Origin: a virus
DNA: 64,000 bases
Virus record (IMG/VR): IMGVR_UViG_3300042991_000780
Location: 31,173-95,172 of that record
Reading direction: 5' to 3' (one strand)
The position numbers were made by a program, and so were the translations under genes. This document shows positions 1 through 12,034 of this stretch, piece after piece (the first letter of the stretch is position 1; each line of letters begins with the position of its first letter). The notes under the pieces are model-generated. The model saw only the letters and a list, made by a program, of their open reading frames with translations, did no database searches and was not told the origin of the DNA.

Positions 1-474
1 AAATATTGAACAACCAGTAGCACAAACAACGCTACCCATTTCATAATAACCAGTAAATGTTATTGGTAAGCAACTTACTGTAAATGTACTTGATGGTGAT
101 GTTAATGTTGGACACACAACTGGTGCTAATACTTCTTCAAGAATATTAGCAATTGTTCTTCCAGTAAGTGTTGTTCCGCATACTAATCCACCAACAGTAC
201 ATGTTGCTGGCGTTCTACAATCATAATAACCCGTACTTGTACCACCAGTCGATACTTGCCCCAAAACAATACAACCACTAACATACTTTAAAACATTTTG
301 TTCTGATGCACCACTACTCAAAATAACAACCGGAATATTTGTTCCATTTTCATCAGCAAATGTTAAACCACCATCATATTTACTAAATATGGTTGTACCT
401 GATAATGTTAATGTTGTTCCACTTAACTGCTTAAATTGAGTATTATCTAAATTTGGTCTTGCGAAAAATGGCAT
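1..474 (-). CDS. Virion/tail-fibre-like Thr/Gly/Cys-rich protein, runs off the window edge
   Basis: Manual translation from ATG at 474 (MPFFARPNLDNTQFKQLSGTTLTLSGTT...) is open to position 1. GTATTTAT motif upstream at 578-585. Confidence 0.6.
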   Translation of the reverse strand, partial: MPFFARPNLDNTQFKQLSGTTLTLSGTTIFSKYDGGLTFADENGTNIPVVILSSGASEQNVLKYVSGCIVLGQVSTGGTSTGYYDCRTPATCTVGGLVCGTTLTGRTIANILEEVLAPVVCPTLTSPSSTFTVSCLPITFTGYYEMGSVVCATGCSIF

Positions 475-615
475 ATTTTTTTAATTTAATTCTCTTATTT
501 TATTTTTCTAAACGGCTAACAACATAACCGTCCAGTTAATTACCTAAACCGAACTTTTCTGTTCGGTTTTATTTATAATAAATACAAAAGAATATGATTA
601 AAAACTACCGGAAAT

Positions 616-650
616 AAAAAAACCCCGAAGAATATTTTCTACGGGGTTTT
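616..650 (-). terminator. Intrinsic terminator after the ARPP-1-like gene
   Basis: AAAACCCCG/CGGGGTTTT stem followed by a T run on the - strand. Confidence 0.8.
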
Positions 651-673
651 GACTAACATTATGAATGATTTCC

Positions 674-1774
674 CTAAAGAGTAAACCTATCTTGTTTACG
701 AGCCTTTTTACGAAGTTCGTTTACTGTTCTGAGAGCATCTGGATCAAATCTTTCCCTTTTAACGACACTCACCATATGGTTGAATTCGTTTTCGGTGATA
801 ACCTGACCAATATATCCTTCGGTCTTGAGTACATAACTCTTTGGTGCTTTACTTGAAGCAGAAGGGTTACCTTCTGTATCAAGAGTTGCTTCAAAGGTCA
901 ACTCAAGAAGTTCCTGAATCTTTTCCTGAACACTTGCGGTCATACCCTGTTTTGTTTTCTTCAATGACCTTTCAAGCAAATCAACAATATTTTCCTGATG
1001 CTTTACTTTCAACTCATTATAAGTTTCGGTAAAATTCTGCATTGTTGATCTATTTTTCAACTCACTGATAATTGCAAGTGAACCATAGCAGTCACGGATC
1101 ATCAAGTCCCATACCTGTTCTGCGTAAGTGAATGAAGGGAATTTGTCTATTGCAACAATTTCACCATCAACAAGTACGATGATACCGATAAGATTGCTTG
1201 GACGTTCAAAGTGAGCAATAAACTGTTCAAGTTTCTTGTCGTACTTTTCAAAGTAAACGTTCAAGTAGTTACCAGCGTTTGACTGAGTATCCTGACCCAA
1301 TTTCTGAATAGCAGGATAAATCCTATGATATGAACTTGGCTGTCCAACAGTGTCAAACACCATTTCACGCATGGTTACTGGAAGCATACGGAACTCCTGA
1401 GTACCACGAAAATGTCCGGTCTGTCCACCCTGAACACAACCAGCATCGTGATAAGTAACGTTACCGTACTTTTCAACGTAACCTGCTTTGGTCATACCAT
1501 GATTCTGAGCACTCTGCTTGGTCATAACAGCCATCTGGGTAGGAAGAATAACTTCCTTATCAGCCTTATTAGCAAAACTAATCTGACCGTAAGAACTGTT
1601 ACCAGCCTGAACCGAAGTCAATGGATTAGCAAAACGTTCATCCAAAGAATATTCCTTGTCAGTTGTCAAACATACGATCTGCATGTTCAAAATTGACTGA
1701 ACGATAATGTTACCGTTTTTGTCTTTGACTGGACGGCAACCTTTAAGCAATTCTGTAAATTCTCTTTTATTCAT
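674..1774 (-). CDS. ARPP-1/DUF6569-like protein
   Basis: Motifs QNH...CVQGGQ and IGIIVLVDGEIVAIDKFPS...W...DCYG resemble the ARPP-1 family. Lies 11 nt downstream of the vWA gene. Confidence 0.6.
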   Translation of the reverse strand: MNKREFTELLKGCRPVKDKNGNIIVQSILNMQIVCLTTDKEYSLDERFANPLTSVQAGNSSYGQISFANKADKEVILPTQMAVMTKQSAQNHGMTKAGYVEKYGNVTYHDAGCVQGGQTGHFRGTQEFRMLPVTMREMVFDTVGQPSSYHRIYPAIQKLGQDTQSNAGNYLNVYFEKYDKKLEQFIAHFERPSNLIGIIVLVDGEIVAIDKFPSFTYAEQVWDLMIRDCYGSLAIISELKNRSTMQNFTETYNELKVKHQENIVDLLERSLKKTKQGMTASVQEKIQELLELTFEATLDTEGNPSASSKAPKSYVLKTEGYIGQVITENEFNHMVSVVKRERFDPDALRTVNELRKKARKQDRFTL

Positions 1775-1785
1775 GATATGAAATA

Positions 1786-3420
1786 TTAAGCATTAATACT
1801 AATTTTTTTGTTCCTTTTAACAGGTGCTGCTTCAAGAGCAAGAACCTGATTTTCAAGCCACCTTTTGGTGTCAATTTCAAGCAACCTTGCGTTGATTTGT
1901 GGCTGCAAAGCAACGGGGTTATTTATTGCCATTGTGACAACTCCTGCACCAAGTTTCCTTACATTAGCACCCATTTCAGCACTCACGATTGGTGAAATTT
2001 GAAACATAGGTATATTTCTTCCGGTTTCTGCCTTCCAAATGTTGATAACTTCATTGGTAAGACCATCGTATGCGTTTTCGTATCCATCGGTTAAGATGAA
2101 GATTGCATCATATGGTTTTGAAGCATTTTCTGCTTTCAAAAGTCCAATAAATGAACTTGCCAAGTCAGTAACCTCACCATCAGTGTATTCAATACTGCAA
2201 CTATTGGTTGCAGATTTGCTCAATACCCTTGCGGTAAAGTCAGCAATTGCCTTTGGAGTGTTCTTTGATTCAGCCTGATGACCACTCATTGAATTACTCA
2301 TATCGACAATAATACCGATATTTGGGTAGAAGAATCCTACGATTTTCTTCTTGTCTGCAAGTTTGTCAATAGCACCCATTATTTCAGGAGTGAATTTTGT
2401 TTCATAACCTGTCTTGTAAAGTGCCAAGAAATCAGTTGCTTTTTCAAGATCAACATGTTTTTCAACACCCAACTTTGCAGTTGATTTTGTCTGACGAACC
2501 TGCTGGTTTACAGAAGTAACCTCAACATTTTTCCTAATCAAAGCCTTTGTTGCTTCTCTCTGGATTTTTGTTGACCACATTGAATGATACTGAGGATGCT
2601 TTACGCTTGAAATCAAGCCAAGCAATACTTCTTCAGGTACTTTCTTTGATGCAGTAATATCAGTCTTTGCTTTCTGATATTCACTCAAAAGAGGGAATAC
2701 ATTAGCATTAAACGTAACACCAGCATCTTTCTTGAAGATGAAAAGCATAAGTTTGAATGCTTTCATTGGATCACCATTGTAATACCTTAATATGTATTCA
2801 TTCAAAATCTTCATTTCCTTTTCAGTTCCAACAACGAATTCACCAACGTTAGCAGCCTTGCCAGTAATTGAAAGCAACACAGATGTCATTTTCTTTCCAT
2901 ATGCGTGCCTCAAAGTATCGGCAATCTTGTTACGATATTTCATTGCATAGAATTCAAGGTTTTCCTGACCCCAGATGAAGCCAAGCATGATTTTCCTTGA
3001 CCTTTCGTTGTTGATCTTTGCATTTTTCAATGAAACAAACAAACGAAGAACATATGGTAGACCACTTTCGCCAAGGTTGTTCAATGCTGAAAGCACTGCC
3101 TTATCGCTTAATCCGTTATCATACCAGTCAATTGGATTAACAATATTGCATGCTCCACCCTTTAAGGTACTTTTAAATTCATTAAACAATACCTCTGATA
3201 CGAACTGACCAGTCGCACCCTTCTGAGTTGCAACTATCAACGGGAGTTCCTTTGAAAGTTTATACAAACTCTTAACCTGAGTCTGAATAGCCTTCACCTG
3301 TTCGTCACCCTTGTGGTAATAGGTAGCACTACCTTTTGCACCACTTGCAATGGTAAGACCATCGATAAGTGACTGCTTTACCTTACTGAGCATGTTGTTT
3401 GCTAATACCAACTTTTCCAT
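1786..3420 (-). CDS. Ro60/TROVE-like protein: predicted helical N-terminal region plus C-terminal vWA domain
   Basis: MIDAS-like IIVDMSNSMSG and AIFILTDGYEN. At 544 aa, size and layout match Ro60/Rsr. The vWA call is firm and the TROVE homology is inferred. Confidence 0.6.
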   Translation of the reverse strand: MEKLVLANNMLSKVKQSLIDGLTIASGAKGSATYYHKGDEQVKAIQTQVKSLYKLSKELPLIVATQKGATGQFVSEVLFNEFKSTLKGGACNIVNPIDWYDNGLSDKAVLSALNNLGESGLPYVLRLFVSLKNAKINNERSRKIMLGFIWGQENLEFYAMKYRNKIADTLRHAYGKKMTSVLLSITGKAANVGEFVVGTEKEMKILNEYILRYYNGDPMKAFKLMLFIFKKDAGVTFNANVFPLLSEYQKAKTDITASKKVPEEVLLGLISSVKHPQYHSMWSTKIQREATKALIRKNVEVTSVNQQVRQTKSTAKLGVEKHVDLEKATDFLALYKTGYETKFTPEIMGAIDKLADKKKIVGFFYPNIGIIVDMSNSMSGHQAESKNTPKAIADFTARVLSKSATNSCSIEYTDGEVTDLASSFIGLLKAENASKPYDAIFILTDGYENAYDGLTNEVINIWKAETGRNIPMFQISPIVSAEMGANVRKLGAGVVTMAINNPVALQPQINARLLEIDTKRWLENQVLALEAAPVKRNKKISINA

Positions 3421-3458
3421 AATGACAATTTTTAATTATTAAAACTTATTTTTCATTG

Positions 3459-3492
3459 TGCAATGTTACACATTATTTTTTAATATCCAAAA
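3459..3492 (-). promoter_or_regulatory. Bacteroidota-type promoter for the vWA gene
   Basis: TTTG-N19-TAACATTG on the - strand, close to the -33 TTTG / -7 TAnnTTTG consensus. Confidence 0.5.
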
Positions 3493-3500
3493 AAATTATA

Positions 3501-3550
3501 AAAAAAATCGGGTAAGTCGATAGATTTCTCAATCAAGTCCCCACCCGATT
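3501..3550 (-). terminator. Terminator-like hairpin closing the RNA array
   Basis: AATCGGGT...ACCCGATT stem followed by TTTTT. Confidence 0.6.
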
Positions 3551-3581
3551 CGTTTTTTGGAATAACTCTTCTTCAAATTAA

Positions 3582-3675
3582 AGAAGAAGTGCGGTTGTAT
3601 TGCCTGTAGTTTGTCTCCCTTCTCACACGGGGGAGATTACATTTTTCAATTACTGTAAACACAGCCAGTTCTTCC
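3582..3675 (-). ncRNA. Scaffold RNA module M5 (hairpin cargo)
   Basis: GGAAGAAC-T-GGCTGTGTT-TACAGTAA-[TCTCCC/GGGAGA hairpin]-AATACAACC-GCAC-TTCTTC. Confidence 0.65.
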
Positions 3676-3755
3676 ATAAAAATTTATATTTTTTGAAAAA
3701 AATGCCACACACCTGTGACCAAAAAACCATTTTTAACCGTCAAATGTTAGGATTC

Positions 3756-3825
3756 CAAGTGGGGATTTGGATTAATATTACTTGATTTATCAAATTTGTC
3801 TGCAATCCGCATATCGCTCCACTTG
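3756..3825 (-). ncRNA. Possible degenerate sixth module
   Basis: CAAGTGG/CCACTTG and GGATT/AATCC stems. TTGCAGACAA sits where TTACAGTAA occurs in the others, followed by a small hairpin. Confidence 0.3.
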
Positions 3826-3834
3826 TATAATTTC

Positions 3835-3972
3835 GGGAATAATTTAAAAGTATTTGTTGTTTTTAATCAAAGTTTAAGAGACTTCTGACTTAACCGCTTG
3901 TCTATTTTTCAATTTTGGCTGAAAAAGATGGATTCGAACCACCGTATTACTGTAAACACTTTTCGTTTTCCC
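3835..3972 (-). ncRNA. Scaffold RNA module M4 containing a circularly permuted tRNA-Lys(CUU)-like cloverleaf
   Basis: Order: T arm GGTGG-TTCGAAT-CCATC, acceptor 3' strand TTTTTCA-G-CCA, linker AAAT, acceptor 5' strand TGAAAAA, D arm GAC-AAGCGGTTAA-GTC, anticodon arm GAAGT-CTCTTAA-ACTTT. The ends pair as the scaffold. Confidence 0.8.
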
Positions 3973-4001
3973 TCAATATTTTAAAGAACTTCAATAAGTT
4001 T

Positions 4002-4081
4002 AGAAGAAATTCGTTGGTCTTGTTGTCGTTATTAGTTTGATTTCAAGTCAAATTGTTACTGTAAAAACCACCAGTTCTTCT
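4002..4081 (-). ncRNA. Scaffold RNA module M3 carrying an isolated Ser(UGA)-type anticodon stem-loop
   Basis: AGAAGAAC...TGGTTTTTACAGTAA-CAA-TTTGA-CTTGAAA-TCAAA...AAGACCA...TTTCTTCT. Confidence 0.7.
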
Positions 4082-4153
4082 TTATATTTTAAATTTGTAG
4101 CAGGTTATTGTTTCAAATTTGAAATTTCAAAGTATTTATAATAAATAGTACTT

Positions 4154-4831
4154 ATGAAACCAAATTATACCGAATCTGAATTTGACACAGCAACATCTAC
4201 AAGTTTATTATCTTGTTTTTGTTATAATTGTAACACCCTTTTTAATGTAATGAAGAAAAATATTGTACAGGAATTAAAGCATAAAAGAGGAAGAATAAAA
4301 TTTTGTTCAAAGAAGTGTCATGATATTTATCAATCAAATCAAATCTCCGTTATTTGTAATAATTGCGGTAAAACATTTACTAAAATAGCATCTGAAATTA
4401 AAACAAATAATTTTTGTTCAAATTCATGCGCTGCAATATATAATAACACACATAAAACAAAAGGCAATCGTAGGTCTAAACTTGAAACATATCTTGAAAC
4501 ACAACTCGCTGCACAATTTCCAAATTTAGAAATATTATTCAACGATAAAAAAACAATTAATTCCGAACTGGATATTTACATACCCAGACTTCACCTTGCT
4601 TTTGAACTTAATGGTATTTTTCATTACGAACCTATCTATGGTCAAAATAAATTGAGTCAAATTCAAAATAATGATAATCGTAAATTTCAAGCCTGTTTAG
4701 AACAAGAAATTGAATTGTGTATTATTGATGTTTCACATCAAAAATATTTTAAAGAAAACACTTCAAAAAAGTATTTAGACATTCTCATTACAATTATAAA
4801 CAATAAGTCAATGAACATGTTAAACATTTAG
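4154..4831 (+). CDS. Zn-finger plus Vsr/DUF559-like endonuclease (free-standing homing endonuclease type)
   Basis: CxxC and FCSxxC repeats. C-terminal ELDIYIP...FELNGIFHY...DNRK. Own GTATTTAT motif at 4132. Confidence 0.7.
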   Translation: MKPNYTESEFDTATSTSLLSCFCYNCNTLFNVMKKNIVQELKHKRGRIKFCSKKCHDIYQSNQISVICNNCGKTFTKIASEIKTNNFCSNSCAAIYNNTHKTKGNRRSKLETYLETQLAAQFPNLEILFNDKKTINSELDIYIPRLHLAFELNGIFHYEPIYGQNKLSQIQNNDNRKFQACLEQEIELCIIDVSHQKYFKENTSKKYLDILITIINNKSMNMLNI

Positions 4832-4887
4832 TCAATCTATCGATTGTGCAGTAATTACCACGTGCAGGTAGTTTAACTTTAATTACT

Positions 4888-4961
4888 TAGCGGGAGATGG
4901 ATTCGAACCACCGACCTTAACGTTATGAGCGTCACGAGCTAACCACTGCTACTACCCCGCA
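4888..4961 (-). tRNA. tRNA-Met(CAU), initiator-like body with an atypical anticodon stem
   Basis: TGCGGGG-TA-GTAGCAGTGGTTAGCTC-G-TGACG-CTCATAA-CGTTA-AGGTC-GGTGG-TTCGAAT-CCATC-TCCCGCT-A. 1:72 mismatch and no encoded CCA. Confidence 0.9.
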
Positions 4962-5386
4962 ATATGTTTTTCCAATAAATCCCATGCTTCTCTATATTCA
5001 TGAGATTTTGGCTTTCTCTGTCTGGATACTTTTTCATGTAATGTTATTGAACCCGCAAATGAATTAAAAATATTAACAGGTACAACATAAAACACTTTTA
5101 GTTCTGAAATGAAAATTATTGCAAAATTAAAATCATTATTGGAATATTTTTCTCTTTTCATCACACGTCTATTTGTTTTGGTTCTTCTCACATCAATCAA
5201 ATAAACTCCTTCTTCTTTTGATAACCACGCTGACTTAACTTGTATCTTAATAAATTTATTATTAATAACAATGACCAAATCATATGGTAATCTATCACCT
5301 ACCGGAATTAAAACATCCCATCCCAATTGAAGTGCTTTTAATTGTACTTCAATCTCCGCAATATCACCTTTCATTTTAGTATCCAT
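4952..5386 (-). CDS. PD-(D/E)XK endonuclease, group I intron-associated (I-Ssp6803I/PDDEXK_5-like) family
   Basis: KGDIAE...IPVGDRLPYDLV...IQVKS...Y...DF. The stop codon overlaps the tRNA 5' end. Start taken at MDTK (alternative 5401). Confidence 0.8.
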   Translation of the reverse strand: MDTKMKGDIAEIEVQLKALQLGWDVLIPVGDRLPYDLVIVINNKFIKIQVKSAWLSKEEGVYLIDVRRTKTNRRVMKREKYSNNDFNFAIIFISELKVFYVVPVNIFNSFAGSITLHEKVSRQRKPKSHEYREAWDLLEKHIAG

Positions 5387-5411
5387 AATCTCAAAGAACA
5401 TTTAATAAGAT

Positions 5412-5549
5412 AAAAAAGGAAAATTTGTTTGTTATTTCTGTTATAAACAATGATGGAATTGAACCACCAACATTCTGCTTGACGTGCAAACACTCTAACC
5501 AGTTGAGTTAATTGTAATTTACTGTAATAACAACACCGTTTCCTTTTTT
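5412..5549 (-). ncRNA. Scaffold RNA module M2 enclosing a tRNA-Asp(GUC)-like cloverleaf (5447-5515)
   Basis: ACAAT-TA-ACTC-AACTGGTTA-GAGT-G-TTTGC-ACGTCAA-GCAGA-ATGTT-GGTGG-TTCAATT-CCATC-ATTGT, flanked by AGGAAAC..GTTATTACAGTAA and AATAAC..TTCCT. Confidence 0.75.
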
Positions 5550-5551
5550 TG

Positions 5552-5689
5552 TGGGGAGAACAGGAATCGAACCTGTAATCAATTGTGTTTAAAACAATTT
5601 GCTTTACCTTATTTACTGTAAACACTTCAAGTTCTCCCTTACGGGAGCAATGAGATAGTATTTTCGTTATTTTGATTTGCTATCTCCCC
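5552..5689 (-). ncRNA. Module M1: tRNA-like RNA with the scaffold inserted in the D arm
   Basis: 7-bp acceptor GGGGAGA/TCTCCCC and T arm ACAGG-TTCGATT-CCTGT. A ~65 nt insert AAATACT..CTCCC-GTAA-GGGAG-AAC..AGTGTTTACAGTAA lies in the D arm. Confidence 0.7.
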
Positions 5690-5732
5690 ATTTAAAAGTT
5701 TGTTCAAAGAACATTTTGTCATTCAGACGTTG

Positions 5733-5764
5733 CAAATATAAAACACCTTTTTTAATTGTGCAAG
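5733..5764 (-). promoter_or_regulatory. Bacteroidota-type promoter driving the RNA array
   Basis: CTTG-N20-TATATTTG (perfect -7 element). Confidence 0.6.
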
Positions 5765-5822
5765 CATTTTATAAAATATTTTCTAAAAAAATTAAAATAT
5801 TTTTATCTGCACGTCTGGAATA

Positions 5823-5830
5823 ATAAATAC
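5823..5830 (-). promoter_or_regulatory. Putative late promoter GTATTTAT upstream of the RNA array
   Basis: Same motif that precedes the structural genes of the window. Confidence 0.55.
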
Positions 5831-5869
5831 GATGATATTTCAAAAAAGTTATAAAAAAGTATAAAAAAA

Positions 5870-7777
5870 TTAATCTTTTTTCATAATATCCTGACTCTTA
5901 GCATTTTTGCGGATATGTTCAAGTACACTTAAAACATTACTATTATCACTTTCAAGACTATCTGGATCAGTTAAAATAATTTTATTTTCTTTTGGTAATT
6001 GTGGTTTTTCTTCTTCAATTATGATAAGATCATCAGTTTTTACCACTGGAATTTCACCAGTAAGTTCAGTTTTTGTCTCACCACTCTCGCCATTCCAGTC
6101 AAAATAATCACCACTTGGTTTAATATTTTCATTATTGGTCATTATAATCGGTTGTAATGTTTCGGGAATTTCTGAGACATTACCTGTAACAATAAGTGGT
6201 TCTTTTTCAACCTTTGGTACTTCAACGTATTCCCTATTCCACGCTGCCTTAAATTCCTCAAGTTCATTTTTCTTTTCAATTATAACATCATCATTAACAT
6301 TATCCAGATGATCCGCATATTTTTCCGATATGACTTGAGCAATTTTTTGTTGCGATGATACTTTATTTGCAATATCTTCAATATTTTCAACATCAGTAGT
6401 CTTAATACCAGTTGTTTTAATTGGATACCTTTCATCTTCAATAACAATTTCCATTGTATCATTATTGAACCTACTATCCCTAAAAGTTTGACCATCTTGT
6501 GCAAATCTTGCTTTTATTATTCTGATGTTTGCAAGACCTGCTTCTTTCTGATCTGCAGTTTTTGCAACTGACATAAAGAAGTGTGCTTTTTGAACACGTT
6601 TAATGCTACCACCAGTTTGGTATGCTTCAACATATTCTGAATCAAATCCACTTCTGTTTGTCTGTATTGCAGTCCATGCCGGAATGTTAAAATCGGCAGC
6701 AAGTGCTTCAAACGATTTAATAACCTGAAGTTCTGCTTCCGTTCTATCAGTTGTTTTCTTATTTGATTCAAGACAATCAAGATAATCAACAATAAGCATA
6801 TCAAACTTAAAACCCCATTTTTTCTCGTAACGAATCATCCAGTTCCTAATGTCAGTCATTGTTGTATTTTCCTGACTAAACTTCTTTATTACAAGATGTC
6901 CCTTACCATTTAATTTTTGTTTCTTTTGTTCAACTTTCTCAGCAACTTCGCTTAGATGTTCATCCATTTTACTTAATTGAACACCAGTCCATATGGTAAA
7001 ATGTTTTCTCTGTATTTGTTCTATCGTATCCTCAAAAACTATTTGTGCAACATTTTTCCCGGCAAAATCATATGCAGTATTTGCAATTTTGGTAAGCATC
7101 GTAGTTTTCCCAACCCCGGATGGTGTTAATATAACACCAATTTCACCCTTACCAAGACCACCATCAGTTACAATATCAATAACACGAATACCTGTTGGTA
7201 TTGTCTGACGGAATTCTTTTCTCAATACTCTATCGATGTTATCAATTACTTCAGTTCCAAAATCTTCTTCTTCTCCAATATGTGATATTTTCAGTAGTTT
7301 TTCATCAATCTCACCAAGTACATGTTTTTTTCGTATTTCTCCAGTTTTTGTTTTATCAATTATAAATTCAGCAAATTTTCTCCATTCTTGTTGTTTAATG
7401 AATGTTGTTGTTGTCTTTCGAATAGCCTCACCGTCATAATCAAGTTCCTTGTTAATGATTCGTTCATTCCATAATTGAACTTTCTTTATTACGGCAAATA
7501 ACGATTCTTCCTCAATCTGATTGTTGGGTGCTTTAAATTGATTGATTGCTTGTTGAATACTTTGATTCTGTAAATTTGGTACTTTACCAAATTCTTTATA
7601 ATACTCCAATATTATAATGAAGAGTCTCCTATAATTTGGATCATCAAAATATTCAACAGATAAATTAGATAATGTTTTTTCGGCAAACTCTGGTTCGACA
7701 AGCAATTGCCACATAAGACGCAATTGAAATTCCGGTCCGAGATATGCCGTAAATGTATTTTCTGTAACTTCTGCCAT
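5870..7777 (-). CDS. Replicative DNA helicase (DnaB/T4 gp41-like) with a long acidic C-terminal extension
   Basis: Walker A TPSGVGKTT, LIVDYLD, WTAIQTNR, IIKARF. Confidence 0.9.
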   Translation of the reverse strand: MAEVTENTFTAYLGPEFQLRLMWQLLVEPEFAEKTLSNLSVEYFDDPNYRRLFIIILEYYKEFGKVPNLQNQSIQQAINQFKAPNNQIEEESLFAVIKKVQLWNERIINKELDYDGEAIRKTTTTFIKQQEWRKFAEFIIDKTKTGEIRKKHVLGEIDEKLLKISHIGEEEDFGTEVIDNIDRVLRKEFRQTIPTGIRVIDIVTDGGLGKGEIGVILTPSGVGKTTMLTKIANTAYDFAGKNVAQIVFEDTIEQIQRKHFTIWTGVQLSKMDEHLSEVAEKVEQKKQKLNGKGHLVIKKFSQENTTMTDIRNWMIRYEKKWGFKFDMLIVDYLDCLESNKKTTDRTEAELQVIKSFEALAADFNIPAWTAIQTNRSGFDSEYVEAYQTGGSIKRVQKAHFFMSVAKTADQKEAGLANIRIIKARFAQDGQTFRDSRFNNDTMEIVIEDERYPIKTTGIKTTDVENIEDIANKVSSQQKIAQVISEKYADHLDNVNDDVIIEKKNELEEFKAAWNREYVEVPKVEKEPLIVTGNVSEIPETLQPIIMTNNENIKPSGDYFDWNGESGETKTELTGEIPVVKTDDLIIIEEEKPQLPKENKIILTDPDSLESDNSNVLSVLEHIRKNAKSQDIMKKD

Positions 7778-7881
7778 TTTAAAATTTTCTTATAAAAAGG
7801 CAGTTGTTGCTATATATGAAATATGAAAATGAAGTATCAAAAACAAAGATTCACGCAACAACCGCCCAATATCAAACAGAC

Positions 7882-8484
7882 TTAGTTTTTCCTAAGTCTT
7901 CTCAACATCTCTTCTCTCTTAGCCGGAGAAAGTTCTCTGATCTGATTAATGGATAAACCTTTAATATTAATCAAATCATAATCGTCCCACATGTTTTTAA
8001 TATCGTTCCTTTTAATAAGATTGAAAATGTTATCAGCAACATCAACAACAGCATTAACCATATCGGCAGAAAATTTTGCAACCGGATTAAATCCGTCAAC
8101 ATAAAACATTCTTTCAACAATTGGTTTATCATTAATATAAAAACCAATTTTACATTCAACACCCCTAATTGTTTTATCTTCAATTTGTTGTACGATTGGT
8201 GTTGGATTATAATACATTTCTTTTCTCCACTCCTGCGGATATTTGCTAATCATCTTCTGATTATGTTGAAAAAAATCGAGTTCATTTGAAAACTGAGTTT
8301 CATATGATCGCTTCGATAATACCTTTTGTATTCTGGTGATTGCTTTTGGAAGAATTTCTCTTATGTCAATTGAATACCTTGTGAAAGGATTAAACTGATC
8401 GGCACTAAACACTTTTTCACACATCAACGTATTTTCCTGATATAGTGAAAACCTAAACATGTTATTAAATTCTTTCTCGTTCAT
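7882..8484 (-). CDS. Hypothetical protein
   Basis: 200-aa ORF in the replication block. TATATTTG promoter element at 8519-8526. Confidence 0.6.
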   Translation of the reverse strand: MNEKEFNNMFRFSLYQENTLMCEKVFSADQFNPFTRYSIDIREILPKAITRIQKVLSKRSYETQFSNELDFFQHNQKMISKYPQEWRKEMYYNPTPIVQQIEDKTIRGVECKIGFYINDKPIVERMFYVDGFNPVAKFSADMVNAVVDVADNIFNLIKRNDIKNMWDDYDLINIKGLSINQIRELSPAKREEMLRRLRKN

Positions 8485-8555
8485 ATAATTTTTTTTAAAT
8501 TGTTAAATCGTATCAATACAAATATAAATAGAATCCGGGTAACGTAAAAGAGTTT

Positions 8556-9608
8556 TTATAAATATTGTTTACTATTTTTATAATACTCTTTATATAAGTC
8601 TCTTTCACGACTCACAACAGTGAAAAATGGATCAACATATTGCACATATGTGCTTCCATAAATTGATAAAAAGTCATCTTCTCTCATCATAGGCAACAAG
8701 TTTTTACCACCCCTGTTTTTAATATCCAATGGAACATCAAGATCAGATAATGCTGAAACTGCTTGTTCATTAAGCATTGGTTCTCTTAAATTCACCAGTT
8801 TGTAATTGGTTTTTAGTCTTTCAATATTGCCCAATAAGTTTTCAAACGCTTTTAATGGTTTTAGTTTCTTGCTTACCCTTTCCTTATTAATTTGATCCGC
8901 TTTTCCACAAACTTCTCTAACTGTAAGATGTTTGAATTTCAATTCCGGGAAGTGTTCCAGTAATGTTTTTTCTTTTATCCCACCAACACCTTTTATATTA
9001 TCAGATGTGTCACCACATATTATTTTCAATATTAATGCATTTGAATAGTGATGATCAAAATACATCATATAATTTGTTTTGGTAACTGGTTGGTCAAGAT
9101 TTGGAAATATAATCGTAATATTTAAATCCAGAAGTTGTGCAAAATCCCTATCGTTAGAATATAGAAAGATTTCTTCTTTATTGTTATATTTCAAACAATA
9201 TGCTGCAATAATATCATCGGCTTCAATATCGTCAATTTCAATTTGTCTGAAATATAATTCTTCAGCATATGCTTGAATTCTAAGTCTTTGTTTTAAAATA
9301 GATTCTTCTTTCTCTCTTTCTCTGCGTATTTCAGCAGCAGTCATTTCAATTCTTCTATACCATTCTTTATTTTTTCGATTGGCTTTGTATTCTTTATCAA
9401 TATAATGACGCATAACACCCCCACCTTCGCCATCCCAGACCAATACAACCTTATTAATCATATGATCTTTAATTAACTTACGAATGGTTGTCATAAAAGA
9501 ATAAAGTCCACCTATATGTCCATATTTAGACGTATAGGTGTCCTTTGCTCCGTGAAATGAACGTTGCAAGAGATAAGAAGAATCTACCAACAAAGTTCTG
9601 ATTTTCAT
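8556..9608 (-). CDS. 5'-3' exonuclease/flap endonuclease (PolA N-terminal / T4 RNase H family)
   Basis: LLVDSS, VWDG, YKANR, EADD, SNDRD, GDTSDNIKGVGGIKEKT. Confidence 0.92.
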   Translation of the reverse strand: MKIRTLLVDSSYLLQRSFHGAKDTYTSKYGHIGGLYSFMTTIRKLIKDHMINKVVLVWDGEGGGVMRHYIDKEYKANRKNKEWYRRIEMTAAEIRREREKEESILKQRLRIQAYAEELYFRQIEIDDIEADDIIAAYCLKYNNKEEIFLYSNDRDFAQLLDLNITIIFPNLDQPVTKTNYMMYFDHHYSNALILKIICGDTSDNIKGVGGIKEKTLLEHFPELKFKHLTVREVCGKADQINKERVSKKLKPLKAFENLLGNIERLKTNYKLVNLREPMLNEQAVSALSDLDVPLDIKNRGGKNLLPMMREDDFLSIYGSTYVQYVDPFFTVVSRERDLYKEYYKNSKQYL

Positions 9609-9611
9609 AAA

Positions 9612-10736
9612 TTAATTGATTTCTTCAAGAAGGTCTTGTGTGTTATATTCTTCTTCGTTGCTTTCTTCGGTATATTCAACATCATCAATGTTACCACCAC
9701 CCAATATTTCCATAAACATATCAGCATGTTCCTTAAAATACTGCTTTGCAAGTACATCTTTGGGTGAATCTGGAATGAATCCATGTGGTGTGGCAATAAG
9801 TTTCGTATTTAATGATATACCAGTAACATGGTTTTTTGCAATATTAACCTTAGTTCTTGTTGCATATGTTACTTCTACACCGTTTTTTTTAACCTTTAGT
9901 TTTGAAATACCTGAATTGGTAACATTTCCGAAAACAACCTGTATTGTTGAATTGAATGGAATTGTATCACCACCTTTTGCAGCAATCTTTGGTAAGCCTC
10001 TAAATACTTCCGGTTTCCTAACCCAAACCTGACAAATGATTGCCATGTAATTATTGTGTGGATAACCATCTTTTTTGCACATATTAAGTTTGGGAATTAA
10101 ATTCTTTCCGAATACCCTTGATATTGCACCAGCATCCCATTCATTATTCTGACTATCACTTGTGAAACTTAAATTAGATTGTATTGTACCAATACTATCA
10201 ATTAAAATACATAGATCACGCTGTAACTTTCCGTCTGCTTGGAGTTTAAATAATTGACTTATTTTATCTCCCATTTCTTCAATAGTATTAAACCTTGACC
10301 TGTCGATGAATAAGAAATCACCCTTATATTCGATCATACCAGTTTCTTCATCAACTTCTTCGGTAAATTCAATACCCATTGTTTTTAAATGCTCCCAAGC
10401 AAATTTTAACTCAGTAATAATAAACACAGGTAAAACATTATCAGGTGATTGCTGACATGAATATGCTATTTCATATAAAAGTGTACTTTTTCCACTATCT
10501 GTATGCCCAATGATATTCATCATTTCATTTGCGGGAATTCCGGGCAATCCAGTTGCCTTACAAAATGCACTTTGACCCAATACATTTGTTATTGGTAGCC
10601 ATTTCCTTGGTTTAAATTTAACTGTTGCATCAAACTTATAATCCTTTTTAAAATTTTCTAACGAAAATTCTTTTTTTGCTATTGGTTTCCTTGCTGGATT
10701 TGCAGGAACTTCATTATCTGTAACATTCTTTGCCAT
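9612..10736 (-). CDS. RecA/UvsX-like recombinase
   Basis: Walker A GHTDSGKST, ILIDSIG, KGG, KNH. Confidence 0.85.
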   Translation of the reverse strand: MAKNVTDNEVPANPARKPIAKKEFSLENFKKDYKFDATVKFKPRKWLPITNVLGQSAFCKATGLPGIPANEMMNIIGHTDSGKSTLLYEIAYSCQQSPDNVLPVFIITELKFAWEHLKTMGIEFTEEVDEETGMIEYKGDFLFIDRSRFNTIEEMGDKISQLFKLQADGKLQRDLCILIDSIGTIQSNLSFTSDSQNNEWDAGAISRVFGKNLIPKLNMCKKDGYPHNNYMAIICQVWVRKPEVFRGLPKIAAKGGDTIPFNSTIQVVFGNVTNSGISKLKVKKNGVEVTYATRTKVNIAKNHVTGISLNTKLIATPHGFIPDSPKDVLAKQYFKEHADMFMEILGGGNIDDVEYTEESNEEEYNTQDLLEEIN

Positions 10737-10756
10737 AATATTTTTATTTTTTTGTT

Positions 10757-10784
10757 AAAAAAGGGGGACGAGAATCCCCCTTTT
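10757..10784 (-). terminator. Intrinsic terminator after SSB
   Basis: AAAAGGGGGA/TCCCCCTTTT stem plus T run. Confidence 0.8.
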
Positions 10785-10801
10785 AGTTAATTACCAATAC
10801 C

Positions 10802-12034
10802 TTAGAAGGGTAAATCGTCATAGTTGTCATCACCTGAACTTTCCGGTTCTGGTTCGGATTGTGTTGCTGGTTGTGATGATGTCATAACCGATGCATGACT
10901 CATATCAACAGCATCATCCTTATAAGTACCAACGTTTTGTTCAGTAATATTACTGATTGTAACACGTGGGTATTCTTCATCAATAAGATCAGATGCCTGT
11001 TCAAATTCTTCTTCACCATCAGCATCAAGATTACGCTTGCGTGTATTTGCTGCTTCTTCCAGTTCTGGATTGCCCGGAAATACCCAATGCTTGTTGTTTG
11101 CATCGCTATCATCCCAATAAGGATTATTGCCATTTGCAACCATATCAAGGAATTGATATGCATCAATACCGGGTGCTTTCTTAGGTGGATACACATCTCT
11201 CCAAGTTGTGTCATCTTCAAGCCAAGTCCTAACAACAGCAGGGTCATCATGAAGTTTTGACTTACCACTAAACATAATTGCAGATATTGTCTTGTAAGTT
11301 GTGTTCTTCCAAGGCGTATCTGTCATAAGAATGTTTAAATCAGTACCGTTCTCAGGATGTGAGAAGTCGGCTTGTTGAGTACTCATGTACTGTTCCAAGA
11401 TTGGAAGTAACTTGTCGAGAGTACCTTGATTCTTGAAATTGTGTTTAAATCTCCAGAATTTAACACCGTCTTTCATTTCACCCTTATCGATACCACGAAC
11501 AATGTAGAATTTTTTTGCTTCCCAAGTGTTTGCTTCCAAGAAAATTTCCTTATTTTTTTCGAAAATTTTCAATTCATCAGCATTGAGAGATTCTTTCTTC
11601 CTACCTTTTAATGCAGGATTCTGTTGTACAAGAATTTTCTTTGCTTTGGCACATAACGGACATGGTGCTGGAATCATGATCGGCTGACCATTCGTATCCA
11701 AATACGGCTGACCTTTAGTATCCAATTTCTTTACTTTTGGATCATTGTGTGCCGGACAATAAATAATTGTTCCGTGTTTCTTCTTACCACCAGTAGTGGT
11801 TGTAGGAACAACATGGAAGAATGCTTCCTCAATGTGTTTCTTTCCGGGTTTTGGGGGTAAAATTCTGAAGATTTCTTTGTTGTTGCGGGGAACAAAATAC
11901 TTAGATAAAATTTCCTCACGTGATTTTCTTCTCGATGACTGTGCTTGTGATTTTTTTGCGAAGTCAGAGAACATTCTTTTCAAATTTGACAAATCTCCAC
12001 CTTGTGGGTTTGTCATTTCATTTTGGTTTTCCAT
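10802..12034 (-). CDS. Single-stranded DNA-binding protein (gp32-like)
   Basis: FRILPP, CPLC, GVKFWRF, GTDLNI motifs and an acidic tail ending DDLPF. Confidence 0.8.
   Translation of the reverse strand: MENQNEMTNPQGGDLSNLKRMFSDFAKKSQAQSSRRKSREEILSKYFVPRNNKEIFRILPPKPGKKHIEEAFFHVVPTTTTGGKKKHGTIIYCPAHNDPKVKKLDTKGQPYLDTNGQPIMIPAPCPLCAKAKKILVQQNPALKGRKKESLNADELKIFEKNKEIFLEANTWEAKKFYIVRGIDKGEMKDGVKFWRFKHNFKNQGTLDKLLPILEQYMSTQQADFSHPENGTDLNILMTDTPWKNTTYKTISAIMFSGKSKLHDDPAVVRTWLEDDTTWRDVYPPKKAPGIDAYQFLDMVANGNNPYWDDSDANNKHWVFPGNPELEEAANTRKRNLDADGEEEFEQASDLIDEEYPRVTISNITEQNVGTYKDDAVDMSHASVMTSSQPATQSEPEPESSGDDNYDDLPF

What the first reader, a model, noticed from the sequence alone, without database searches (positions are those of the whole stretch)
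4002..4081. Minimal module displaying only an anticodon stem-loop (CU-UGA-AA, Ser-type)
Seen: the cargo is a perfect 5-bp stem UUUGA/UCAAA with a 7-nt loop of canonical Y-U-NNN-R-A form (4036-4052) and no other tRNA arms. Inference: retaining just this part suggests the anticodon loop is the functional payload, supporting a decoy role against anticodon nucleases or modification enzymes.
Basis: partly seen in the sequence, partly recalled or inferred. Interest (0 to 1): 0.7.

Follow-up and report, generated by a model that had tools for sequence, protein, structure and literature searches.

The report
Minimal Y-like RNA beside phage Ro60
An 80-base gene in a giant phage encodes the smallest of five related small RNAs that share a docking stem, probably for a Ro60-like ring protein; it carries one hairpin shaped like a tRNA anticodon arm, which is conserved in relatives although its 'anticodon' is not, so it is not a specific serine-tRNA mimic.

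Summary
On the minus strand, 4081-4002 folds into a terminal stem, and its cargo is a perfect 5-bp stem with the 7-nt loop C-U-UGA-A-A (4052-4036).

It is a real, conserved RNA gene. A covariance model finds it at one syntenic position in 52 of 73 related jumbo-phage loci. It is the smallest of five paralogous scaffold RNAs upstream of a 544-aa protein. That protein has no Pfam TROVE hit, but its model matches Ro60 (Z 18). An ARPP-1 gene follows.

Bacterial homologues of the protein (25-31% identity) have an RNA with a recognisably similar handle directly upstream, often behind large tRNA arrays. This makes it a new branch of the Ro60/Y-RNA theme.

- 30 of 37 distinct homologues keep a stem closing a 7-nt loop.
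- The arm matches the anticodon arms of the tRNA-like sister modules.
- U33 is kept in only 4 of 30. The family consensus is a Tyr-type loop with G or A at position 33.
- The Ser-type loop is a derived minority state.

A decoy role is untested. This scan has already found the same system, and the same minimal Ser(UGA) module, on other DNA.

The parts
4002..4081 (-). Whole class-1 scaffold RNA (the finding)
   Evidence: Covariance model R1, 81.5 bits, E 1e-13. MFE and centroid fold. Alignment A1.
4075..4081 (-). Outer stem, 5' strand (purine-rich), followed by the invariant C at 4074
   Evidence: The six pairs scored (4080-4075 with 4008-4003) are invariant in 29 of 29 sequences, so they say nothing either way on covariation. 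The same G-R-R-R-A-A-C start is shared by all five classes.
4002..4008 (-). Outer stem, 3' strand, preceded by the 3-nt bulge 4009-4011
4064..4073 (-). Inner stem, 5' strand
   Evidence: 96.9% of cells paired. The pair at alignment columns 12/69 switches G-C to A-U in 12 of 29 sequences.
4012..4021 (-). Inner stem, 3' strand
4056..4064 (-). Invariant 9-nt core (U-U-A-C-A-G-U-A-A) joining handle and cargo
   Evidence: Five copies on this strand in the window. It lies on the gene strand upstream of the Ro60-like gene in most of the 73 related loci. The related form A-U-U-A-C-A-G occurs in the bacterial loci.
4036..4052 (-). Cargo hairpin: 5-bp stem and 7-nt loop (4041-4047) reading C-U-UGA-A-A
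   Evidence: Homologous arms in classes 2 and 4.
4022..4035 (-). A/C-rich single-stranded linker between the hairpin and the 3' handle strand
   Evidence: Unpaired in the fold. Of similar length and composition in classes 1, 2 and 3.
3583..3674 (-). Sister module, class 3 (G+C-rich hairpin cargo)
   Evidence: R1 hit at 38.4 bits..
3837..3971 (-). Sister module, class 2 (circularly permuted tRNA-like cargo, Lys-type loop)
5417..5544 (-). Sister module, class 5 (whole tRNA-like cargo, Asp-type loop with C33)
   Evidence: Rfam tRNA, 44.5 bits, at 5444-5517. R1 hit..
5552..5689 (-). Sister module, class 4 (tRNA-like, with the handle permuted into the D-arm position)
   Evidence: Fold z-score -3.9..
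1786..3420 (-). 544-aa Ro60-like (helical ring plus vWA/MIDAS) protein, the presumed partner of the handle
   Evidence: AF2 model with pLDDT 92.6. The top 12 Foldseek hits are all Ro60/TROVE. VIA Z 18.2 over 408 residues to Xenopus Ro60, against Z 10 for the next unrelated entry. The MIDAS D-x-S-x-S is conserved: D373 and S377 invariant, S375 in at least 90%.
674..1774 (-). ARPP-1 domain protein, the conserved downstream partner
   Evidence: Pfam PF20208, E 4.8e-14. The same gene order occurs in bacterial loci L090 and L121.
5735..5762 (-). Promoter-like site at the head of the RNA array
   Evidence: Consensus scan only, plus my reading of a Bacteroidota-type -33/-7 pattern. Not shown to function.
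3704..3719 (-). Terminator-like hairpin with a U run inside the array
   Evidence: Consensus scan only.

Best explanation
The stretch is a genuine small-RNA gene. It is the smallest ('class 1') of five paralogous RNAs encoded as an array on the minus strand. The array lies upstream of a highly diverged Ro60 (TROVE-like ring plus vWA) homologue and an ARPP-1 gene, in a clade of roughly 350-kb phages.

Shown:
- Its ends form a conserved handle: outer stem, small internal loop, inner stem and an invariant 9-nt core.
- All five classes share that handle. RNAs directly upstream of distant bacterial homologues of the protein have it in recognisable form.

Inferred, by analogy with Y RNAs and from the deep synteny:
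- The handle is the docking site for the Ro60-like ring.
- The part between the handle strands is cargo presented to other factors.

In class 1 the cargo is one weak 5-bp hairpin with a 7-nt loop, followed by about 15 nt of A/C-rich single strand. The hairpin is homologous to the anticodon arms of the tRNA-like cargos of classes 2 and 4. I therefore read it as an anticodon-arm remnant or mimic displayed without the rest of a tRNA.

Most likely it acts as an adaptor or bait that brings a protein recognising anticodon-type loops to the Ro60-like particle, or keeps it away from real tRNAs.

Its triplet and position 33 turn over quickly. The family consensus is a Tyr-type loop with G or A in place of U33. 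The Ser-type loop in the window is a local, derived variant, so no specific tRNA-Ser identity should be read into it.
For: Real and conserved:
- R1 finds one hit of 63-94 bits in 52 of 73 related loci plus the window.
- It always lies between class 5 and class 2. The commonest orders are 5-1-2 and 4-5-1-2-3.
- The inner stem is kept by compensatory G-C to A-U changes in 12 of 29 sequences. 92% of cells are paired, against 38-57% when the partner is slid.

Ro60 link:
- Model pLDDT 92.6.
- The top 12 Foldseek hits are all Ro60.
- Z 18.2 over 408 of 520 residues.
- The MIDAS motif is conserved (D373 and S377 invariant, S375 in at least 90%).

Deep association:
- Homologues at 25-31% identity in Planctomycetota, Myxococcota, Saprospiraceae and Pseudohongiella have a handle RNA with an A-U-U-A-C-A-G core directly upstream on the same strand.
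- ARPP-1 lies directly downstream in the two loci checked, L090 and L121.
- tRNA arrays of 15-38 genes often precede the locus.

Anticodon-arm homology:
- A 7-nt loop is kept in 30 of 37 homologues, closed by at least five different stems.
- The arm is nearly identical to class-4 anticodon arms.
- Class-2 arms show the same C32/A37/A38 frame, a variable triplet and frequent loss of U33.

Precedent:
- Y RNAs are encoded upstream of Ro60 in bacteria and phages. One Y RNA per species is tRNA-like and another is a simple hairpin (PMC4201824).
- Phage phiLo Ro60 binds two upstream Y-like RNAs (PMC12135203).
Against: - Binding of this RNA to the protein is not shown.
- Expression is not shown. No RNA run holds the locus, and the promoter and terminators are consensus matches only.
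- The known Ro60-binding motif (G-N-C-G-A-A-N0-1-G, PMC4201824) is absent, and Rfam YrlA does not match.
- The hairpin is thermodynamically marginal.
- Within the main group its stem shows only U-A to U-G changes, with no clean compensatory pairs.
- Seven of 37 homologues lack the 7-nt form, so the hairpin may be dispensable.
- With G, A or C at position 33 most loops cannot form the canonical U-turn, so 'anticodon mimic' may describe ancestry rather than present function.
Confidence: 0.55

Rival explanations
1. Decoy. The displayed anticodon-type loop competes with real tRNAs for a host anticodon nuclease or a tRNA-modifying enzyme. It titrates or blocks that enzyme, and the loop changes as part of an arms race.
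For: - The triplet and position 33 turn over fast while the loop frame and stem stay fixed.
- The Ser-type loop arose at least twice or was exchanged between lineages.
- The consensus loop equals the tRNA-Tyr loop with U33 replaced by G or A. In 17-mer tRNA-Tyr anticodon arms, these are the changes that nearly abolish colicin E5 cleavage. The arm alone is a sufficient substrate (PMC1635277).
- In classes 1, 2, 4 and 5, no loop with G34-U35 has U33.
- Phage tRNAs with anticodon-loop changes have been proposed to evade such nucleases (PMC10264068).
Against: - No nuclease or enzyme partner is identified.
- A loop that is no longer recognised is as likely to be merely protected from cleavage as to be an inhibitor.
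- C33 variants would remain E5-sensitive.
- G33 in class 1 is largely one inherited state, so the avoidance pattern is not many independent events.
- The host is unknown.
Confidence: 0.2
2. Plain 'gate' Y RNA, like YrlB or Yrn2. Only the handle matters, for example to occupy or regulate the Ro60-like ring. The hairpin is a structural cap whose loop is free to drift, and its anticodon-like look is inherited and has no function.
For: - Every characterised bacterium has a second, simple hairpin Y RNA beside the tRNA-like one (PMC4201824).
- The hairpin is weak.
- It is altered or lost in 7 of 37 homologues.
- 20 of 73 related loci have no class-1 hit of 63 bits or more.
Against: - A freely drifting cap should vary in length. 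Instead a 7-nt loop with a fixed C...A-A-A frame is kept behind at least five different stems.
- Small hairpins with 7-nt loops recur as the sole cargo in distant bacterial loci.
Confidence: 0.2
3. Decaying remnant. The module is a pseudogene of a tRNA-like module that has lost its other arms and is on its way out.
For: - It is shorter than its sisters.
- Its cargo resembles one arm of theirs.
Against: - It holds a fixed syntenic position with an invariant handle across lineages whose partner protein has diverged to 59-90% identity.
- The inner stem is maintained by compensatory change.
Confidence: 0.04
4. DNA-level element. The repeated, partly palindromic core is an operator, iteron or homing-endonuclease target beside the helicase gene, not an RNA.
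For: - The core is a near-palindrome.
- The array lies next to a DnaB-like helicase gene and two endonuclease-like ORFs.
Against: - All copies have one orientation, the strand of the Ro60-like gene, in phages and in bacteria.
- The flanks covary as RNA helices.
- The cargos are tRNA-like folds.
Confidence: 0.02

Closest known systems
YrlB / Yrn2-type small Y RNAs of bacteria (Salmonella, Mycobacterium smegmatis, Deinococcus radiodurans; PMC4201824)
   Same: - A second, smaller RNA encoded with a tRNA-like Y RNA just upstream of a Ro60 gene.
- The 5' and 3' ends pair into a long stem that carries a small loop region.
- M. smegmatis YrlA and YrlB are processed from a common precursor (PMC4201824).
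   Different: - The handle lacks the G-N-C-G-A-A-N0-1-G motif and has its own invariant core.
- The partner protein is a Ro60 branch that Pfam TROVE does not detect.
- The loop region is an anticodon-arm-like hairpin rather than a pyrimidine-rich loop.
- There are five classes, not two.
YrlA (Rfam RF02553), the tRNA-mimicking Y RNA
   Same: - Ro60-associated.
- Terminal stem plus tRNA-derived cargo.
- The sister class 2 in this window has YrlA's order: T arm, acceptor, D arm.
   Different: - This module has no T, D or acceptor elements.
- It has no Rfam match. The only YrlA hit in the window scores 22.9 bits against a gathering score of 69, and lies elsewhere.
Thermus phage phiLo Ro60 with Yrl1 and Yrl2 (PMC12135203; PDB 9L5Y, 9KOP)
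   Same: - A phage-encoded Ro60 with Y-like RNAs directly upstream.
- The phiLo structure is among the fold matches (Z 14.6).
   Different: - phiLo was found as a Ro60 homologue in UniProt and its RNAs were picked by a CGAA motif. The protein here has no sequence-level match to Ro60.
- The RNAs here use a different core and carry tRNA-like or anticodon-arm cargos.
- An ARPP-1 partner gene is present.
Isolated tRNA anticodon-arm minihelices, 17-mers that suffice as substrates of colicin E5 (PMC1635277)
   Same: - A 5-bp stem and 7-nt loop.
- The family consensus loop equals the tRNA-Tyr loop except at position 33.
   Different: - The hairpin is embedded in a larger RNA.
- The stem is A/U-rich and weak.
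- U33 is replaced in most homologues.
- No enzyme has been shown to recognise it.
Phage-encoded tRNAs with anticodon-loop changes proposed to evade host anticodon nucleases (PMC10264068)
   Same: - Phage origin.
- Non-canonical anticodon loops.
- A tRNA-conflict context.
   Different: - Those are complete, presumably decoding tRNAs.
- This RNA cannot be aminoacylated or decode.

Membership tests
Y RNA (Ro60-associated small RNA, broad sense) | Encoded next to a Ro60 (TROVE plus vWA ring) gene | tested here: met
   The module lies 582 nt upstream of, and on the same strand as, a protein whose model matches Ro60. Sequence methods do not see TROVE.
Y RNA (Ro60-associated small RNA, broad sense) | 5' and 3' ends pair into a conserved stem with an internal loop or bulge | tested here: met
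   The outer stem is invariant. The inner stem is kept through compensatory changes.
Y RNA (Ro60-associated small RNA, broad sense) | Physically bound and stabilised by Ro60 | not testable with these tools
   Needs RIP, EMSA or a structure.
YrlA/YrlB family as defined by Chen et al. 2014 and Rfam RF02553 | G-N-C-G-A-A-N0-1-G motif near the 5' end | tested here: not met
   The 5' strand reads G-A-A-G-A-A-C-U-G-G. A C-G-A-A occurs only in the 3' bulge of some homologues and is C-A-A-A in others.
YrlA/YrlB family as defined by Chen et al. 2014 and Rfam RF02553 | Match to the Rfam covariance model at gathering score | tested here: not met
   No hit at 4002-4081, even at E up to 10.
YrlA/YrlB family as defined by Chen et al. 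2014 and Rfam RF02553 | tRNA-like domain with T and D arms (YrlA only) | tested here: not met
   ARAGORN and the Rfam tRNA model find nothing in the module. The fold shows one hairpin.
Phage/bacterial handle RNA family with the A-C-A-G core (undescribed in Rfam; defined operationally here) | Outer stem ending in G-A-A-C, inner stem, invariant core, cargo, A/C-rich linker, 3' bulge | tested here: met
   A bacterial counterpart folds the same way.
Canonical tRNA anticodon stem-loop | 5-bp stem closing a 7-nt loop | tested here: met
   Met in the window. 30 of 37 homologues have at least 4 stacked pairs closing a 7-nt loop.
Canonical tRNA anticodon stem-loop | Y32, U33 and R37, conserved as in tRNAs | tested here: not met
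   Met in the window itself. Across homologues U33 is present in only 4 of 30 arms, with G in 20, A in 4 and C in 2.
tRNA (RF00005) | Cloverleaf with acceptor, D, anticodon and T arms | tested here: not met
Ro60/TROVE protein family (for the partner protein) | Ring of helical repeats followed by a vWA domain with a MIDAS motif | tested here: met
   Z 18.2, rmsd 4.4 A over 408 residues to 2I91/1YVR. All ten best entries are Ro60. The D-x-S-x-S motif is conserved, with D373 and S377 invariant and S375 in at least 90%.
Ro60/TROVE protein family (for the partner protein) | Match to Pfam TROVE (PF05731) by sequence | tested here: not met
   None of 66 diverse family members hits TROVE. A profile of the family finds no Ro60 chain in the PDB.

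The most novel reading that the evidence does not exclude
Class-1 RNAs are Ro60-tethered, cleavage-resistant anticodon-arm baits. On this reading the family consensus is a tRNA-Tyr loop carrying the very U33-to-purine change that blocks colicin E5-type cleavage. The triplet cassette is swapped between lineages (Tyr-, Cys-, Leu-, Ser-type) as hosts change their anticodon nucleases. The Ro60-like/ARPP-1 particle would use the bait to capture or neutralise such enzymes. That would be a new RNA-based counter-defence built on the Y-RNA principle.
Probability: 0.15. Interest if true: 0.85.

Novelty: new variant of a known kind. Interest (0 to 1): 0.58.

Why it matters
Ro60 and its Y RNAs are conserved from bacteria to humans, yet what the RNA's variable part recruits is known in very few cases.

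Here a single phage locus offers five versions of one handle with graded cargos: a whole tRNA look-alike, a permuted tRNA, a tRNA with the handle inside it, a G+C hairpin, and this minimal anticodon-arm hairpin. The minimal module is the cleanest reagent for asking what the cargo does, because there is only one element to mutate.

The locus also belongs to a branch of Ro60 that sequence profiles miss. That branch is tied to tRNA arrays and an ARPP-1 enzyme-like partner in both phages and bacteria, which points to a role in conflicts over tRNA.

If the loop proves to be a nuclease-resistant bait, it would add an RNA decoy mechanism to the current picture of phage tRNAs versus host anticodon nucleases.

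Tried and rejected
- Rfam at E up to 10 over 1-12000 gave nothing at the module except a chance snoRNA-type match on the other strand.
- Sequence searches of the partner protein against Pfam and PDB found no Ro60. Only the fold comparison did.
- Expression: no RNA holder is listed among the public runs.
Distant homologues were therefore reached through the search for related loci on genome contigs instead. Single-protein scans of viral contigs with P0137 and P0124 found nothing.
- Idea rejected: the loop pairs with the core as a pseudoknot (G-U-A-A-A with U-U-U-A-C). Core variants with U-U-U-C do not covary with the loop.
- Idea rejected: the conserved U-A-C in the linker is a 'codon' for the G-U-A loop. 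It stays when the loop triplet changes.
- Idea rejected: the 19-nt T-arm repeat marks an integration site. It belongs to the class-2 cargo.
- A control set of genuine Q-family tRNAs from these phages could not be assembled. ARAGORN finds almost only tRNA-Met and the class-5 cargos in the loci and the 95-kb record.
- The tree is the quick IQ-TREE search. The careful search did not finish.

Full report
**1. What is there**

The window is part of a 95-kb IMG/VR virus record, estimated to be 31% complete. Its relatives are contigs of up to about 365 kb, so this is a jumbo phage.

All relevant features lie on the minus strand, between a DnaB-like helicase gene (5870-7777) and a 544-aa ORF (1786-3420). 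Read on that strand, 4081-4002 has these parts:
- A 7-bp outer stem (4081-4075 with 4008-4002).
- A small internal loop.
- An inner stem (4073-4064 with 4021-4012).
- A 9-nt core (4064-4056).
- A hairpin of five Watson-Crick pairs (4052-4048 with 4040-4036) closing the loop C-U-U-G-A-A-A.
- A 14-nt A/C-rich single strand.

No tRNA is detected there.

**2. Is it more than chance?**

Taken alone, no.
- The hairpin is worth about -0.5 kcal/mol.
- The module's fold has a z-score of only -1.5.
- Hairpins of this canonical type occur 20 times in the window, against 7.5 expected.

Comparison with relatives settles it.
- The 544-aa protein has homologues in 73 viral loci at 59-90% identity.
- The core motif lies on the gene strand within about 2 kb upstream of the gene in most of them.
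- A covariance model of the module (R1) finds one hit of 63-94 bits in 52 of those loci plus the window.
- The hit always lies between the class-5 and class-2 modules. The commonest orders are 5-1-2 and 4-5-1-2-3.
- The inner stem keeps pairing through a G-C to A-U switch in 12 of 29 distinct sequences.
- 92% of all cells pair, against 38-57% when the 3' partners are slid.

So it is a conserved RNA gene. It is not a decayed copy and not a DNA-level repeat.

**3. The family and its partner**

Five classes share the handle and differ in cargo:
- Class 1: this small hairpin.
- Class 2: a circularly permuted tRNA.
- Class 3: a G+C-rich hairpin.
- Class 4: a tRNA-like RNA with the handle inside it.
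- Class 5: a whole tRNA-like cloverleaf.

The downstream protein has no Pfam family and no sequence match in the PDB, even as a 66-member profile. Its AlphaFold model is confident, with pLDDT 92.6 and pTM 0.90. Fold comparison gives a clear answer:
- The top 12 Foldseek matches are all Ro60 or TROVE structures.
- VIA-align gives Z 18.2 over 408 residues to Xenopus Ro60 and Z 14.6 to the Ro60 of Thermus phage phiLo. The next unrelated entries score Z 10 and cover only the vWA domain.
- The MIDAS motif is conserved: D373 and S377 are invariant and S375 is present in at least 90%.

The next gene is an ARPP-1 domain protein.

**4. Depth of the association**

Homologues at 25-31% identity lie in bacterial genomes of Pirellulaceae, Myxococcota, Saprospiraceae, Pseudohongiella and others.
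- In the loci examined, the RNA directly upstream on the same strand has the same architecture and a core reading A-U-U-A-C-A-G.
- One of them folds with a z-score of -4.6.
- ARPP-1 follows the gene in the two loci checked.
- Arrays of 15-38 tRNA genes often precede the locus.
- No Rfam YrlA match appears in 16 such loci.

Known Y RNAs are likewise encoded upstream of Ro60. One per species is a tRNA mimic and another a simple hairpin (PMC4201824). A phage Ro60 has been shown to bind two upstream Y-like RNAs (PMC12135203). ARPP has been described in other gene contexts, not this one (PMC9503650).

I therefore read the handle as the docking site of the Ro60-like ring. This is inferred, not shown.

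**5.

Among 37 distinct class-1 sequences, 30 keep at least four stacked pairs closing a 7-nt loop. Shuffled cargos give 4.9 +/- 2.0. At least five unrelated stem sequences close such a loop.

| Loop position | State in the 30 arms |
|---|---|
| 1 | C in 22 |
| 2 (the U33 position) | G in 20, A in 4, U in 4, C in 2 |
| 2-4 | variable |
| 5-7 | A-A-A in 28 |

The consensus loop is C-G-G-U-A-A-A. That is the tRNA-Tyr loop (from memory of the E. coli sequence) with U33 replaced.

The window's Ser-type loop is found only in the window and in one other clade (L033/35 and L038-40). On a tree of the partner protein, the window groups instead with carriers of C-A-G-U-A-A-A, with 99% support. The Ser-type loop therefore arose at least twice, or the module was exchanged between lineages (quick tree).

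The hairpin is nevertheless anticodon-arm-like by descent:
- Class-4 anticodon arms in three loci differ from it by one loop base.
- Class-2 arms show the same frame, a hypervariable triplet and loss of U33 in 11 of 32.

Small hairpins with 7-nt loops are also the sole cargo of handle RNAs beside bacterial homologues.

Verdict on the claim:
- 'Displays only an anticodon-type stem-loop' is a fair description.
- 'Canonical' and 'Ser-type' do not generalise.

**6. Mechanism**

Best-supported reading: a Y-like RNA whose handle binds the Ro60-like ring, and whose single anticodon-arm-like hairpin serves as an adaptor or bait for a protein that reads such loops.

The decoy variant has one suggestive point in its favour. 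A 17-mer tRNA-Tyr anticodon arm is a sufficient substrate for colicin E5. Changing U33 to A or G nearly abolishes cleavage, while changing it to C does not (PMC1635277). The class-1 consensus and its commonest variant carry exactly G33 and A33. Across classes 1, 2, 4 and 5, no loop with G34-U35 has U33.

This could mean a nuclease-resistant bait. It could equally mean simple protection of the RNA, or shared ancestry. Much of the signal in class 1 is one inherited state.

Not shown: transcription, processing, binding, or any partner of the hairpin.

**7. Novelty**

Ro60 with upstream Y RNAs, including in phages, is known. The following are not in Rfam, Pfam or the papers I could search:
- This protein branch.
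- Its handle.
- The five-cargo array.
- The ARPP-1 partner.
- An anticodon-arm-only member.

Earlier notes of this scan report the same system on other phage and bacterial DNA, and the same minimal Ser(UGA) module in another genome. I re-derived the main points independently here.

Noticed in passing
window 3837-3971, 4036-4052, 5444-5517, 5552-5689 (minus strand) and the homologous modules in L004-L076: In the anticodon-type loops of classes 1, 2, 4 and 5, whenever positions 34-35 are G-U (Tyr, Asn, His and Asp types), position 33 is A, C or G and never U. With other triplets U33 is the rule (class 2: 21 of 24). The U-G-U element used by tRNA-guanine transglycosylase (from memory) and by colicin E5 (PMC1635277) is thus avoided. 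Relatedness of the sequences has not been corrected for.
   Followed up: partly
L079, L080, L082, L090, L097, L121 (bacterial loci), about 4 kb upstream of the Ro60-like gene: Dense same-strand arrays of 15-38 tRNA genes precede the Ro60-like/ARPP-1 pair in Planctomycetota, Myxococcota and a Pseudohongiella genome. The last element before the gene is a handle RNA enclosing a tRNA-like or hairpin cargo.
   Followed up: partly
window 4003-4080 compared with L004, L041 and L033: The class-1 module of the window is most like that of L041 and L033, sharing a 3-nt insertion and a similar linker. Its Ro60-like protein is closest to L004-L006. This suggests cassette exchange of single RNA modules between phage lineages.
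   Followed up: partly
window 3926-3944 and 4895-4913: A 19-nt stretch covering the T arm is 100% identical between the genuine tRNA-Met and the permuted-tRNA cargo of class 2. This is compatible with gene conversion between a real tRNA and a mimic.
   Followed up: no
window 4952-5401 (minus) and 4154-4831 (plus): A PD-(D/E)XK_5 endonuclease ORF ends where tRNA-Met begins. A 225-aa ORF with zinc-finger-like repeats sits inside the RNA array on the other strand. Both look like mobile endonuclease genes inserted in the array.
   Followed up: no
window 3720-3835 (minus strand): About 115 nt lie between class 2 and a terminator-like hairpin, with a long-range stem and no assignment. It may be a further structured RNA without the shared core.
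   Followed up: no
L004 about 1345-1385, L018 about 5345-5385, L030, L034, L038, L044, L069 (after class 1): A conserved G+C-rich element of about 35 nt follows class 1 in several relatives and is absent from the window. Its ends are complementary and enclose C-C-C-U-G-U-G-G.
   Followed up: no
class-5 cargos in L014, L064, L059, L022, L042 and others: ARAGORN calls several class-5 cargos tRNAs with anticodons U-C-A or U-U-A, which would read stop codons. I did not examine whether these are suppressor-like tRNAs or only mimics.
   Followed up: no
L118 163-601 and 6326-6544: A Bacteroidales MAG contig carrying a distant homologue of the Ro60-like protein also holds a GOLLD RNA (165 bits), a group I intron, and tRNAs nearby.
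   Followed up: no
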